This document shows, one piece after another, positions 24,001 to 33,000 of a stretch of DNA of 64,000 nt. Origin of the DNA: Ruditapes philippinarum (taxonomy: Eukaryota). The stretch lies in contig NW_026865766.1 in NCBI RefSeq assembly GCF_026571515.1, positions 1-64,000 of the forward strand, given 5' to 3'. A program made the position numbers. Numbering within the stretch: the stretch's first letter is position 1; each line of letters starts with the position of its first letter.

Positions 24001-27000
24001 CGGTCAGATCTGCAGACTGACTCGAATCTATACTGGTGACTTTATTATTTTTTTCAACGTATATATGGAATGATGTGTATGAAAGGGAGATAAAAACAAT
24101 CAAAGACGATAACTTTCACAGAGTCAGAAGGGTAACTGCACGAATATTTATGATTATTTCAGACTAAAATGTTATAACATAACATAAAAGTTAACATAAT
24201 ATATTTTAACCTACGAAACCGCAAAGACAGACACAAAAAACTAAAATTTATCTAAGACAGACACCAAAAACTAAAATATATCTATCTCGTATTATATTTT
24301 ATTCAACACTCTTTAAACAAAAACAAAACAAAAACATAAAGAAAAAGAAAAACAAAGAAAAAAAAACCAACAACATGAGAATACATGGACCAATTATTTG
24401 TAAGTTGTGATCCGACAGGACTTTTCTCTAATTTTAGAAAGATTTAAATACGCCGACGAAGAAAATAAAGCTCTCAAAACAACCTCCGAAAAGTACAAAG
24501 TTGAGCTCGAGGCGATAAAGTCAGAATTTGTTGACGAGCATATGAAGTCAAAGCTCCTTGAGCAGGAGGTCGTTTATCACACAGGTAAGTACCTTTTTTA
24601 ACCTTTGGCTAAAATAAAGCCATAATTTTTGCACGGAAAATATGTCAACGTCATTGTACCGTTTGTGGCACGTGCGCCCTGCATGATGCGAAATAATATA
24701 CAAATTCGGACTTTTAGCTGATGTATGATGTGATATGTACTGAAAAATATATATCTATATTGACCGAGGCAAAAGCGATATCACATCATATTCACCAGCT
24801 AAAAAGTTCATATCTGTTTTATTGAATAATTTATAAATAGCTATTATTTGGTGCAAGGGGACGTGAGGGATGTTGCACTTTTTAATTATCCCTCATGTAC
24901 AGACTCAATCAAACCAAGATTTTATACTGCTTAGCAGCAGTGTGAAGTGTTGTGTGGCATCTGAAAAAAAATGCCCATAATAAGTGTTGAAAATTGAGTA
25001 CCGCTCAAGTCGGTGCTAGGGTGCATGAGGGACGTTGAAGTTTTTCTTTATCCATGCTGATCGCAAACGCATTATGTTGGTTTTGTCGCGACGCGACTCA
25101 TATTATTTCGGAGAGGTAATTTCAGGCTTTATATTCGTTCATTTTTAAGAAATGATGGAGTTCAATAATAAAGCACGTTTAGAGATGACGAGGCAACTTG
25201 AAGACATGCGCGAAACCATGCGCAAAGAACGGATAGGAGCAATCAGTACAGAATTAAGTATCGACGCTGAAAATGAATGCCTGAAGTTTGACGTCCATTC
25301 TCTTTCAAGTAATGTTACCTTATTTTTAAGCTTCGGAAAAAAAACAACATTAAACAAACAAAAAAGATTAAAAAGATTAAATATTTTATAAATTAACATG
25401 ATGAATCAATTGAAATAAATTTAGAAATTATTATATATAATAATGAGCACCGTCATGCGATTTGGGGTCTTAATGACATAATGCGCAAACGTCATAAATG
25501 ACGTCAAAAGTCATACCGGAAGATCATTGCGAAACTACACATGTTAATCTAGAAGTTTTGTTTACGATTATTATCGACAGGTTACACGTATTTTCTTTGC
25601 GTAAAATGGCCGAAGAGCTAGAGGTAAGTTTCTTTATTCGTGTTTTTGAACAATCTACTGTATGTTTATGTTTTAAATCTGATTTCATTTGAATCAATAA
25701 TGTTTTGAAGGTCAGTCGGTATTTGAAAACGAAAGTAGAATACATTCGTGAATCTCTTTACACATCAGGTGCCTATTTAAACGCTGGAAAAAAGTTTATC
25801 ATGGTTTATAGACTAGTATGAATGTTTCGACATTAATCTTTTTCTCTAGAGCTATTTTTATTTTCATCTAGAACTAGAATCTAATAAATTTAAAAAAAAT
25901 ATTTGCCGCTTTGCGAGACTAGATCTAATCCTAGATGTAGTCTACATGAATATATTTACGCATGAATATATTGACACATAACGAATAAACCCTTAAAACT
26001 TTGGTACATGTACATTTAATATGTGATAACTAATTTGTTAAATAGCTGGAATTAGTGTGTAAACTGTCGTCTGGAACCGCGCTGTTTCAGTTTAAACGGT
26101 TACGCCGTTCGCTTTGCGTGCGGGTGGTTGAGGTTCAAAATCTGCCTCTCTCTTATTTTTTTTAGGCATTTTTTTTTAAATCACATGCTGATTAAACAAA
26201 TAGCAAAGAGTTTAACAGTAAAATGTTATAAATTTTTAGATTTTGCATTTAATTTTTCTATTCATTAGTCATTTATGTTTGATATTAGAATTTGCATAAA
26301 GAGGTATAATTAATATATTATTTGTATTTTATTTTCAGGAACTAGAGAGCCTTTTATCAGAGCATTTTGGCAGAACACCGTTGACTACACCCTTTAATAC
26401 CCAGGAATATGTTAGTAGCGACAGCGGTTCTGACCAAGACATCAGGGAAAATAGTATAGTGGAGAGCCGTGTGCGAGACTTCCTTTACCAGGATAGAGGC
26501 GCATGTACTGGTGCAAATGGTTGTTCGGAAGACATTGAAAGGGATGAAGAGCTTGAATGGTCCGATGAAGATGAAATCTGTGATGATTATGTTGAACCAG
26601 ATTCTGACCGGCAGCAGGTTGAACTTTATAAATCAAGTAAATGCTGTAGGTTAGCATGTAGCGGAAAATTCACTAAAGATCAAATATATCAGTACCTACT
26701 TAATGTGAAAGAAATGGAAAAAGAAACAAAGGAAATTTACATTATGGGTCTCATAAATGATGAAAGATCTACAGAAAAAACACAACGTGGTAAAAAACGT
26801 CAAAGAATGAGAAGAAAGTATACGTTTCATGGTACTGAAGTATGTAAAAAGACATTTCTACTTTGTCATGGCATAGTGAACACTAAGTAGCTTAAGTAAG
26901 CAAGTTTTTCAGGAAGGTATTGCTCCACGTATACATGGAAATACTGGCAGAAACCACATAATGCTATTACCTTTGACGACGTTACAAGAGTAATACATTT

Positions 27001-30000: not shown

Positions 30001-33000
30001 ATGTACCACTACCATACCATTTACTTATTCATTATTTCAAGTTAATAAGGCCTTATATGTTTTTCCCTCGCCAAAAAATAGTATAATCATTTGAACACAC
30101 CTAATGCAAGAAAAGCGGGAAACGATGACGTGATAAATGGGAAATATTGACGTCAATTTAGCGACGACAACAACAACGTCAAGAAGTTTCAACATGACGT
30201 TGTGAAATAAGTCATATTGAAAAAAATAATAATTTCTTTTGCATATGAATTATATCCCTAGAAAGCATATTTCATGAGCTTTAATTTGATGTGAAAATCT
30301 CAAAATCGATAAAAATGTCATTAAGACCCCAAATCGCATGACTGTGCCCAATATATATATTGCAAGAAAATAAATAAATAAAAAAAAATAAATAAACTAA
30401 ACGACAGTGTTATTTTATTTCAGAAGAGATAAAGAAATTGTCAGAACAGTTGACCACAATACAACATGAGAAAGTTCTGATGATGGTAAGTTATTTCATG
30501 CAAATTGTTGTTGGTTCTTAAAGTGTAAATGAGCCGCGTCACGACAAAACCAACATAATGGGTTTGCGACCAGCATGGATCCAGACCAGCCTGCGCATCC
30601 GCGCAGTCTGATCAGGATCCATACTGTTCGCTATCAGTTTCTCTATTTGTAATAGAGTTTGTAAGCGAACAGCATGGATCCTGATCAGACTGCGCGGATG
30701 CGCAGGCTGGTCTGGATCCATGCTGGTCGCAAACCCATTATGTTGGTTTTGTCGTGACACGGCTCAAATATACACTGTGACGTCTTCAAATACATATTGA
30801 CATTTTATTATTCGAACTGGATATTTACTGCTTTTTCAAAAGTTAAAGCCTTGTCATAAATTGTTGATGTTGCGCAACTGTTTTAGCTAATAAGTAGGTT
30901 ATTATGATCGATCGTCATAATAATTGAAGAGTATACATTATTTACTTTGTGCGTAACTCAAAAGTAACTGTTATCCTAAAATTCACATTATACCTCAGAA
31001 ACGAGTTTCATAGTGTTTAAATAATGGTTTCAGAGCATATATAAGATGCTTATCATCTAAAGAAAGTGGAGCTGAATGTGATGTTATTTGTTTTGAAAGT
31101 AGCAAAATGTAAACAAACTAGTAATTTGGCTTCCGTATAAAATACTAAACTTTTATACCTCAATCTACTTATGTCAAAAAGCAACAGAAGCAAAAGATGG
31201 TTCGGGTATATCGCCAGTGAGTATTTTTTTCGAAACTATAACAGGACTATAACGGGACATAAAGATAAAAGCATTTCTGAGGAATAATGGACCTTTGAGG
31301 TCAAAATGAGCTGAGGTCAAAAAAATGTAACAAAGGGTATTCGTATCAAACCCAGTACAAGTATAACTAATTGATATCTTACAATGATTTCTGCTGACTG
31401 GTTTAAAACTATCATAGATGTTGTTTTACATTTTATTCAGTCATATTATACAAGACAGCTGAATGAGAGGGCAACTGTATCCCACCAAGATAACGAACTC
31501 CGTGCAGCACGTGCAATTACAATTAACACAACAGGTAGGCCCTAATAAATGCTTCTATTCTAACTGTCCGTACATTTCAATTAATGCATCGTGTTAAAAT
31601 CTATAGGTAAATCTTAATGTAATATTTATCGTTGGATTAAAATTAAATAATGCTACTTTTTCCTATAGTTACAACAGCCTTAAAGAAGTTTTAACGGTCT
31701 ATATAAAGAATTTTAATTCTAACTAAGATTTTATTTTCATTGACTTTAACAAGCTTACAAAGGATTTCTATCGGTATCCAAATTATTATACCATATATGT
31801 ATACAAATATAACTACAAATGTTTTTTACTTGTAAAGAATCTCGTTAATAAGGGAATTTTACATTTTTACAAAGGATTGTATCGGTTTAGAAGGACTGTT
31901 TCATCATGAAAACTAACTTGCTAAAATGTATCACATGCATAACAAAAGTTAAATGAAAGAAAAGTAAAACGCCCATTTTATGGACAAATGAAATATTCGT
32001 ATGTATCCTAGATGGATGCTTGAGTCTTGGCAGCACAAAAATGGCAGAAGAAATGCACCCTGACGTCCCAGAAAACATTACTTTAAAAAATAAGGTAATT
32101 AAAATATTTATTAATGCATTTTTTAAATCAACCATATCTTTTAAAATCTTTATATAATTATATATATATTTTAATGATAATGATACGCGACCATCTTCCG
32201 TTTATATATGAATTAAATCTAATTTCTGATTTAGTTTTTAATTTTTCAAGAATTCTTATTCGAATCACCCCATCCAAAATTGTGAGTTTTTTAAAGGTGT
32301 AAATCATCTACTACCTTATCAACATAAGACTGTGCAATGGAGATTCTCTCCTATAAAATGTCTCTGCCAACAATTGGTCTTTAAAACACTGGATATCTTT
32401 TGAATTAAACAAAGTGATTACATTGTACATATGAGCCGCGTCACGACAAAACCAACATAATGGGTTGCGACCAGCATGGATCCAGACCAGCCTGCGCCTC
32501 CGCGCAGTCTGATCAGGATCCATGCTGTTCGCTATCCGTTTCTCTTCTTGTAATAGAGTTGGTAAGCGAACAGTATGGATCCTGATCAGATTGCGCGGAT
32601 GCGCAGGCTGGTCTGGATCCATGCTGGTCGCAAACGCACTATGTTGGTTTTGTCGTGACGCGGCTCATTTATTGTATAACATAAATTTACAGCTAATGGA
32701 TCTAGAAAACAAACTGTTCCGTCGTGAACAATTGATAGAAGAGTTGGTTGCTAACATCAAAGACAAAGATCCAGATTTCAACATTCAGAATGACCCAAAC
32801 CTTAAAATTTATCTTGATGCTAGCTCATCACAGATCAGTTTAGGTATGATATGAGATTTCGTCATTAAACTACTATAAGATTTTTTTGTTTTGTTTTGTT
32901 TTGGGTTTTACGTCACATCGACACAGTATAGGTCATATCGCGACGTTCCAGCTTTACTGGTGGAGGAAGACCTCAGGTGCGCTTCCGTGCATTATTTCAG

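What the first reader, a model, noticed from the sequence alone, without database searches (positions are those of the whole stretch)
25445..30349. Five-intron Sola-type transposon nested in sense orientation inside a host intron
Seen: 35-bp TIRs enclose a transposase split into 6 GT-AG exons (the first is only 18 coding nt, MAEELE). The putative DDD triad is intact (FDF, ADNC, LVDSGF) and lesions are confined to ~26880-26955. Host exons 25150-25308 and 30424-30485 stay in phase across it. Known: Sola1 elements have short TIRs and AWWT targets. Inference: a recently inactivated, or mis-assembled but intact, element whose sense-strand splice sites must be skipped by the host gene or could yield host-transposase chimeric transcripts. 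The ORF track only shows fragments of it.
Basis: partly seen in the sequence, partly recalled or inferred. Interest (0 to 1): 0.7.

Follow-up and report, generated by a model that had tools for sequence, protein, structure and literature searches.

The report
Broken Sola1-like transposon in clam intron
This is an ordinary, recently disabled copy of a cut-and-paste DNA transposon sitting inside an intron of a Manila clam coiled-coil gene, which the host gene simply splices out.

Summary
A 4,905-bp element (25445-30349) is bounded by 35-bp inverted repeats (33/35). It carries a six-exon, GT-AG transposase gene on the + strand.

All five exon junctions agree in position and phase with annotated bivalve relatives. 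The closest is Ruditapes philippinarum LOC132727145, with 505 of 516 aligned residues identical. Two intron positions are shared with three distant genomic copies.

The protein belongs to Pfam DUF7869. The family alignment and an AlphaFold model place three conserved Asp residues (FDF, ADNC, VDxGF) on an RNase H-like core. All three are present here.

The copy is broken by a 5-nt loss and a 1-nt loss in exon 2, which give two in-frame stops.

The host is a CCDC69-like gene. Its annotated protein joins exons 25150-25308 and 30424-30485 exactly across the element.

"Sola1" is the best label but remains inferred:
- It fits a DDD enzyme of about 637 aa and a 5-6 kb element.
- A related copy has homologous terminal repeats and a perfect ATAT (AWWT) duplication.
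- No reference Sola1 protein could be compared.
- This copy's own target duplication is not clean.

This is an ordinary transposon insertion and a new member of a known kind. The joined spliced protein was not searched; the exons were searched one by one.

The parts
25445..25479 (+). 5' terminal inverted repeat (35 nt, begins GAGCACC)
30315..30349 (+). 3' terminal inverted repeat (33/35 complementary to the 5' one; ends GTGCCC)
25440..25444 (.). left flank ATAAT; no clean 4-bp duplication with the right flank (only AAT shared; ATAA/ATAT if the ends are taken one base further out)
30350..30354 (.). right flank AATAT
25489..25506 (.). left subterminal cluster of TGACGT/ACGTCA motifs (3 of the 8 hits in the terminal 550 nt; window background 0.58 per kb)
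25606..25623 (+). exon 1, 18 nt, MAEELE, donor GTAAGT; an in-frame ATG at 25498 lies upstream
   Evidence: equivalent mini-exon and intron in L001-L003
26339..27346 (+). exon 2 (N-terminal, Cys/His-rich region), carries both frameshift lesions
26873..26879 (+). lesion 1: 7 nt where the paralogue has 12 (IGKK), a 5-nt loss; followed by in-frame TAG 26888-26890 and TAA 26897-26899
26949..26950 (+). lesion 2: 1-nt loss in an A run, which restores the original frame
27570..27906 (+). exon 3: first and second catalytic Asp (FTFDF, HADNCPG); 110/112 identical to P0001
28491..28583 (+). exon 4, 93 nt, phase 1 to 1 (QNKNK...); preceded by the intron conserved in 4 of 4 genomic copies
29083..29284 (+). 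exon 5: third catalytic Asp (GHARCLVDSGF); weak DUF7869 match; skipped in the paralogue's isoform X2
29577..29826 (+). exon 6 with stop TGA at 29824-29826
29847..29852 (+). AATAAA, a possible polyadenylation signal 21 nt after the stop
30126..30200 (.). right subterminal cluster of TGACGT/ACGTCA motifs (5 hits)
25150..25308 (+). host exon (CCDC69-like), donor at 25308, ends in phase 1
30424..30485 (+). next host exon, acceptor at 30424, starts in phase 1; joined to the previous one in P0197

Best explanation
The interval is one copy of an autonomous cut-and-paste DNA transposon of the bivalve DUF7869 family, most probably of the Sola1 group. It inserted into an AT-rich site in an intron of the Ruditapes philippinarum CCDC69-like gene, on the gene's own strand.

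An intact version would encode a transposase of about 637 aa from six exons. That protein has a Cys/His-rich N-terminal half and an RNase H-like DDD catalytic core. By inference it binds the 35-bp terminal repeats, and perhaps the subterminal TGACGT motifs, then excises the element and reinserts it with a short AT-only target duplication.

This copy cannot make that protein. Two small deletions in exon 2 shift the frame and give two stops, so it is at best a non-autonomous passenger. The host gene removes the whole element as part of a 5,115-nt intron.

Shown here: the element's anatomy, the lesions, the family membership, the conserved Asp triad and the host splicing. Inferred: the Sola1 label, the transposition chemistry and a role for the TGACGT motifs.
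For: - Terminal repeats. Exon model and phases.
- Every junction is matched by annotated relatives: P0001 and P0010.
- Identity to R. philippinarum LOC132727145 is 505/516 residues.
- Family size: 940 representative clusters at E<=1e-3 with exon 3 alone.
- All source-named relatives are bivalve, apart from one MAG record.
- DUF7869 is found in 19/19 aligned members and in 29/35 further members.
- In the family alignment, D359 is invariant and D444 and D486 are at least 90% conserved.
- The AlphaFold model (pLDDT 78.6) has the order b1(D359)-b2-b3-a1-b4(D444)-a2-b5-a3(D486).
- The relative L002 has TIRs alignable to these and a perfect ATAT on both sides.
- AWWT is given as the Sola1 hallmark (PMC3845634, passages). 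Sola elements are described as DDD with 4-bp duplications (PMC10741241, passage). Curated bivalve Sola1 elements average 5,445 bp (PMC10294476, passage).
- The host protein P0197 reads ...DVHSLS|KEIKKL.... Ten host exons map to 22251-33624 on the + strand.
Against: - No direct comparison with any named Sola1 transposase was possible.
- Pfam gives only a domain of unknown function. The one other transposase signal is a single weak hit to DDE_Tnp_ISAZ013 (E=0.026; the same protein, P0047, among the 19 and the 35).
- The PDB sequence search found nothing.
- Foldseek found no match at E<=0.001. The best, TnsB, has E=0.014, although transposases and integrases head the list.
- This copy's flanks, TAAT/AATA, are not a 4-bp direct repeat. 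The shared AAT would equally fit a 3-bp duplication.
- Its TIR start (GAGCACCGT) resembles the published insect Sola1 TIR (GGACCGT...) only loosely.
Confidence: 0.8

Rival explanations
1. It is the same kind of element, a TIR-bounded and intron-bearing DDD transposon, but the DUF7869 family is not Sola1. It would belong to another Sola group, to a relative of bacterial ISAzo13-type elements, or to a superfamily not yet named.
For: - No named Sola protein was matched.
- Pfam lists the domain as unknown and no paper in the library mentions DUF7869 (0 papers).
- There is one weak ISAzo13-type hit and an Atlas cluster in which 11% of members carry PF07592.
- This copy's flanks share only 3 bp.
Against: - L002 shows a perfect 4-bp ATAT with homologous termini.
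- A 3-bp duplication is excluded at L002 (TAT vs ATA).
- The DDD core, the protein length (about 637 aa here; 630 aa for the insect Sola1 ORF in PMC3845634) and the element length all fit Sola1.
Confidence: 0.25
2. The element is intact and potentially active, and the two frameshifts are assembly or sequencing errors.
For: - The second lesion is a 1-nt loss in an A run, a typical consensus error.
- The two losses sum to 6 nt, so the frame is restored.
- Everything else is 97.9% identical to an open paralogue, and the three catalytic Asp are present.
Against: - The first lesion is a 5-nt loss, and the remaining four bases also need a substitution to fit Gly-Lys-Lys.
- The host exons checked match the annotated host protein exactly: the 52-aa query at 100% and the last exon at 100%. 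This does not suggest a noisy assembly here.
Confidence: 0.12
3. The gene is a domesticated, host-serving transposase-derived gene rather than a mobile element.
For: NCBI annotates relatives as ordinary protein-coding loci with isoforms. Two intron positions are conserved across distant members.
Against: - The terminal inverted repeats are intact and this copy has disabling frameshifts.
- Several divergent loci occur in one genome: six R. philippinarum LOC names.
- The copy sits inside another gene's intron.
- A related copy also has TIRs and a target duplication.
Confidence: 0.03

Closest known systems
Sola1 group of the Sola superfamily of eukaryotic DNA transposons (Bao et al. 2009, known to me only through citing papers and recall)
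   Same: - DDD-type transposase.
- Short TIRs.
- AT-only four-base target (ATAT at the relative L002).
- Element size near the 5.4-kb mean of curated bivalve Sola1 (PMC10294476).
- Protein length near the 630-aa insect Sola1 ORF (PMC3845634).
   Different: - No sequence comparison to a reference Sola1 transposase could be made.
- This copy's own duplication is not a clean AWWT.
- The TIR sequence matches the published insect Sola1 TIR only over a short ACCGT-containing start.
Pfam PF25273 (DUF7869) proteins of bivalves, e.g. R. philippinarum LOC132727145, LOC132753609, LOC132754508
   Same: Same family. Identity to LOC132727145 is 98%, and to the other two 56-66% in exon 3. The exon junctions are the same.
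   Different: Those database entries are annotated as uncharacterised host proteins, with no mention of TIRs or transposition. The window copy is frameshifted.
Bacterial ISAzo13-type transposases (Pfam PF07592, DDE_Tnp_ISAZ013)
   Same: There is a weak profile match over the stretch holding the second and third acidic residues in one family member (P0047, E=0.026). One Atlas cluster has 11% of members with PF07592.
   Different: The match is far below Pfam's cut-off (14 vs 26.9 bits) and is seen in one protein only. The family here is eukaryotic and intron-bearing.
Intronic sense-strand transposon insertions that are spliced out or partly exonised (a general phenomenon)
   Same: The whole element lies in a host intron on the sense strand. 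It carries five donor and five acceptor sites, which the annotated host mRNA ignores.
   Different: No transcript data were available, so exonisation is only a phase calculation.

Membership tests
Sola superfamily / Sola1 group | Transposase with a DDD catalytic triad on an RNase H-like core | tested here: met
   Three Asp are conserved in 19 aligned members: D359 invariant, D444 and D486 at least 90%. The AlphaFold model places them on b1, after b4 and at the start of the helix after b5. All three motifs are present in the window's E3 and E5. No catalytic assay was done, and Foldseek support is weak.
Sola superfamily / Sola1 group | 4-bp target site duplication | tested here: inconclusive
   The relative L002 has ATAT on both sides, and 3 bp is excluded there. 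In the window copy the flanks are TAAT vs AATA, 1 of 4 positions matching. They become ATAA vs ATAT if the ends are moved one base outward. Only two copies were examined.
Sola superfamily / Sola1 group | AWWT target preference (hallmark of Sola1 according to PMC3845634, citing Bao et al. 2009) | tested here: inconclusive
   ATAT at L002 fits AWWT. The window flanks are A/T-only but do not give a clean AWWT repeat. A logo from many copies could not be made, because no clam genome was available in the open collections.
Sola superfamily / Sola1 group | Significant sequence similarity to reference Sola1 transposases (Repbase, the Yuan-Wessler alignment, the Majorek E.10 profile) | not testable with these tools
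   No such library is on hand. Bao 2009 and Yuan & Wessler 2011 are not held. Supplements are closed. Named database hits are all 'uncharacterized' or DUF7869.
Sola superfamily / Sola1 group | Termini conserved within the group | tested here: inconclusive
   The window and L002 TIRs align, with 24 invariant columns of 57 and a shared G(A/G)GC start. Against the insect Sola1 TIR printed in PMC3845634 there is only a loose likeness (G..ACCGT).
Pfam DUF7869 (PF25273) | Match to the family profile above its gathering score | tested here: met
   Full-length relatives score 44.7-65.7 bits against a cut-off of 26, and 19/19 members of A1 match. The window's exon 5 alone scores 21.8 bits, below the cut-off, because the domain is split over exons 3-6. 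The joined protein was not searched.
Zator (3-bp duplication, recalled) and PIF/Harbinger (3-bp TWA, recalled) | 3-bp target site duplication and matching transposase family | tested here: not met
   The window flanks share AAT, but L002 excludes 3 bp (TAT vs ATA). No Pfam DDE_Tnp_4 or Plant_tran hit was found in any of the family proteins scanned.
piggyBac / Kolobok (TTAA targets, recalled) | TTAA duplication; DDE_Tnp_1_7 or THAP domains | tested here: not met
   There is no TTAA at either copy's ends and no such Pfam hit.

The most novel reading that the evidence does not exclude
DUF7869 would be the catalytic core of Sola1-type transposases. On this reading the lineage has kept spliceosomal introns as part of its biology: a 5-6-codon first exon and a phase-1 intron inside the ADNCxG|QNKN motif persist between copies only 38-48% identical.

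Alternative splicing, as in isoform X2 of the near-identical paralogue, skips the exon carrying the third Asp. This would produce a truncated, DNA-binding but catalytically dead protein that restrains transposition, in the manner of the P-element repressor.

In this host intron, the 93-nt phase-1/phase-1 exon 4 could also be taken into CCDC69-like mRNA in frame.
Probability: 0.12. Interest if true: 0.45.

Novelty: new member of a known kind. Interest (0 to 1): 0.25.

Why it matters
The main value is for annotation:
- A set of bivalve "uncharacterized protein / DUF7869" gene models are transposase genes of a TIR element.
- One such copy sits, disabled, inside the CCDC69-like gene without disturbing its annotated splicing.

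If the Sola1 link is confirmed, a Pfam domain of unknown function gains a function. Gene sets of clams and oysters could then be cleaned of these loci.

The conserved introns, and an annotated exon-skipping isoform that lacks the third catalytic residue, are modest leads on how intron-bearing DNA transposons are regulated. Nothing here overturns current knowledge.

Tried and rejected
Searches that found nothing decisive:
- Pfam on the seven exon pieces gave only a sub-threshold DUF7869 hit on exon 5.
- NCBIfam on 19 family members gave nothing meaningful.
- A PDB sequence search with the family profile gave 0 hits at E<=10.
- Foldseek against the PDB with the full-length model gave no hit at E<=0.001. 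RNase H-like transposases and integrases head the list, but weakly.
- A second Atlas search, restricted to named clusters other than DUF7869, gave no usable hit.
- Looking for a source name such as 'transposase' or 'Sola' among relatives found none.
- L003 showed no convincing terminal repeats around its gene.

Literature:
- Bao 2009 and Yuan & Wessler 2011 are not held.
- Other papers gave only general statements about Sola.
- DUF7869 appears in 0 papers.

- The listing of cluster members, wanted to see isoform X1 of the paralogue, is switched off.
It was repeated with a closer alignment.

Other checks and rejected readings:
- tRNA and Rfam scans of the element and its surroundings found no tRNA and only sub-threshold miRNA-like hairpins on neighbouring MITEs.
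- I considered and rejected the paralogue model's N-terminal extension from the ATG at 25498. Distant members start at the mini-exon.
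Full report
**What the window is.** The DNA is AT-rich (28-36% GC in 2-kb steps) and has no N. Host exons translated from it are 100% identical to a Ruditapes philippinarum protein. The element's exon 3 is 98% identical to another protein of that species. I therefore take the window for Manila clam DNA; it is not human.

**The observation.**
- The inverted-repeat scan finds arms 25440-25479 and 30315-30354, 40 nt and 93% complementary.
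- Read from the sequence, the repeats proper are 25445-25479 and 30315-30349, 35 nt with 33 matches.
- A 26-mer from them occurs exactly twice in the 64 kb, once on each strand. It occurs 0 times in 100 shuffles.
- All five introns are GT..AG and the phases are 0, 0, 1, 1, 2.
- Exons are 40% GC; introns are 20-31% GC.
- With the six lost bases added back, the reading frame would give 637 residues.

- Exon 3 alone finds 50 proteins at E<=1e-3 among 87 candidates. In the exhaustive library it finds 940 representative clusters: 256 at E<=1e-10 and 18 at E<=1e-30.
- The best hit, P0001 (R. philippinarum LOC132727145 isoform X2, 555 aa), matches the window pieces at 41/42, 172/178, 23/23, 130/132, 110/112 and 29/29. 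That is 505 of 516 aligned residues.
- P0001 runs across the E1|E2, E2|E3 and E3|E4 junctions exactly as proposed.
- P0010 (LOC132753609, 623 aa) and others cover E4|E5 and E5|E6.
- P0001's longest contig (129,987 bp) differs from that of the host protein (106,921 bp). Together with the 11 substitutions, this makes it a paralogous copy rather than this locus.

**The lesions.**
- Against P0001, seven bases (26873-26879) stand where twelve are expected (Ile-Gly-Lys-Lys).
- Two bases (26949-26950) stand where three are expected, inside an A run.
- Between the two lesions, 23 codons are read in the +1 frame and are 23/23 identical to P0001.
- No other disabling change was seen.
- The 1-nt loss could be a consensus error. 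The 5-nt loss also needs a substitution and is more likely real.

**What the protein is.**
- Pfam sees only DUF7869. Exon 5 alone scores below the cut-off (21.8 vs 26 bits). Full-length relatives score above it, as do 19 of 19 aligned members. A further 29 of 35 members match at E<=0.05.
- In the 19-sequence alignment, the Asp of FDF is invariant. The Asp of ADNC and of VDxGF are at least 90% conserved. N445, K451, N452, G479 and H480 are also invariant.
- An AlphaFold model of P0010 with that alignment has mean pLDDT 78.6 and pTM 0.63. It shows strand 353-366, strand 382-391, strand 396-403, helix 418-432, strand 438-444, helix 451-464, strand 470-476 and helix 484-497.
- That is the order of an RNase H-like core. 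The three Asp sit where DDE/DDD enzymes carry their acidic residues; the expected positions are my own knowledge.
- Independent support for the fold is weak. The PDB sequence search found nothing. Foldseek found no match at E<=0.001, although TnsB, IstA, retroviral integrases, Mu and Mos1 transposases head the list at E 0.014-0.15.
- The window copy keeps all three motifs.

**Is it Sola?** I could not compare it with any reference Sola protein. Bao et al. 2009 and Yuan & Wessler 2011 are not held, supplements are closed, and no source name among the hits says transposase. What I could read in passages is this:
- Sola elements encode DDD transposases, have 4-bp duplications and are mostly 2-9 kb (PMC10741241).
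- AWWT is called the hallmark of Sola1, and an insect Sola1 has a 630-aa ORF and 28-36-nt TIRs (PMC3845634).
- Curated bivalve Sola1 elements average 5,445 bp (PMC10294476).

To test the target site I used the one open DNA collection. Of 28 pattern matches, three loci encode relatives. All three are from contigs filed under a Sedimenticola MAG, but they carry GT-AG introns and are 38-46% GC, so they are eukaryotic DNA.
- L002 has terminal repeats at 58-96 and 6152-6190 (33/39), flanked on both sides by ATAT.
- Its repeats align with those of the window element, down to the shared GAG (left) versus GGG (right) start.
- At L002 a 3-bp duplication is excluded (TAT vs ATA).
- At the window copy the flanks are TAAT and AATA, so only AAT is shared. 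If the ends are moved out by one base the flanks are ATAA and ATAT.
- Two copies therefore give one clean AWWT and one unclear case in an (AT)n-like stretch.
- A single weak hit to the bacterial DDE_Tnp_ISAZ013 profile (P0047, E=0.026), and 11% of one Atlas cluster, are leads only.

I put Sola1 at about 0.65-0.7. A different or unnamed superfamily takes most of the rest.

**Conserved gene structure.**
- The short first exon and the intron before ELESL... recur in L001, L002 (ATG GAC GAG TTT CAG|GT, then ...TAG|GAAGTAGAC) and L003.
- The phase-1 intron inside the Gly codon of ADNCxG|QNKN is at the same base in 4 of 4 genomic copies.
- Other intron positions differ between copies. This is judged from alignment breaks only.
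- This supports MAEELE as the true start, rather than the ATG at 25498 used by the NCBI model of the paralogue.

**Subterminal motifs.** TGACGT or its complement occurs 8 times in the outer 250 and 300 nt of the element. The window-wide rate is 0.58 per kb. L002 has two of these just inside its left repeat. Whether they bind the transposase or act as promoter elements is not known.

**The host.**
- P0197, "coiled-coil domain-containing protein 69-like isoform X1" of R. philippinarum (430 aa), contains ...LKFDVHSLSKEIKKLSEQLTTIQHEKVLMM....
- tblastn places ten host exons between 22251 and 33624 on the + strand.
- The intron is 5,115 nt, of which 4,905 are the element.
- The element is thus in the sense orientation and is skipped whole in the annotated mRNA.
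- By phase alone, host donor 25308 is compatible with acceptors of E4 and E5. Donors of E3 and E4 are compatible with host acceptor 30424. E4 (93 nt, phase 1 to 1) would be an in-frame cassette without stops.
- No transcript data could be consulted, so chimeric mRNAs remain a possibility and nothing more.

**Verdict.** This is a real and well-described feature, and an ordinary one: a recently disabled copy of a bivalve DDD transposon, most likely Sola1, in an intron of CCDC69-like.

**Left unchecked:**
- other copies in the clam genome;
- reads at the lesions;
- RNA-seq junctions;
- isoform X1 of the paralogue (tool off);
- the closed collections metagenome contigs and viral contigs;
- the supplements of PMC3845634 and PMC10294476, which may hold Sola1 alignments or the curated bivalve library.

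Noticed in passing
window 30523-30773; also 25045-25101, 14772-15092, 21774-22100, 32311-32664: A palindromic MITE-like repeat has 110-nt arms that are 95% complementary at 30523-30632 / 30664-30773. Related pieces are scattered through the host gene's introns. Sub-threshold Rfam miRNA hits (MIR1023 at 32494-32610, mir-75 at 30600-30696) fall on these hairpins.
   Followed up: partly
window 38626-40470 and 44887-46734 (+); fragment 56310-56648: Two intronless ORFs of 614-615 aa carry B-box and NHL-type matches (TRIM-like) and look like tandem duplicates. A third, partial copy lies downstream.
   Followed up: partly
window 51738-51917 (+): A second copy of the last coding exon of the CCDC69-like gene, 85% identical at the protein level, lies 18 kb downstream of the gene.
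   Followed up: no
L001, L002, L003 (contigs JBEVXV010000580.1...778.1...837.1): Contigs filed under a Sedimenticola sp. MAG hold DUF7869 genes with GT-AG introns and are 38-46% GC. They are eukaryotic (probably mollusc) DNA binned into a bacterial genome. The NCBI protein ABW185_13685 (P0009) is one of these.
   Followed up: partly
P0001 against window 28491-28583 and 29570-29671: Isoform X2 of the near-identical paralogue LOC132727145 joins exon 4 directly to exon 6. It skips the exon with the third catalytic Asp and ends in a frameshifted tail. The basis of that gene model could not be seen.
   Followed up: partly
window 29320-29380: An (AAT)n/(ATC)n microsatellite lies inside intron 5 of the element.
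   Followed up: no
window 35191-37113 (-) and 19648-20246: Several ORFs of 95-170 aa have no Pfam match at E<=0.1. From recall only, they look like retrotransposon and mariner-type remnants.
   Followed up: no
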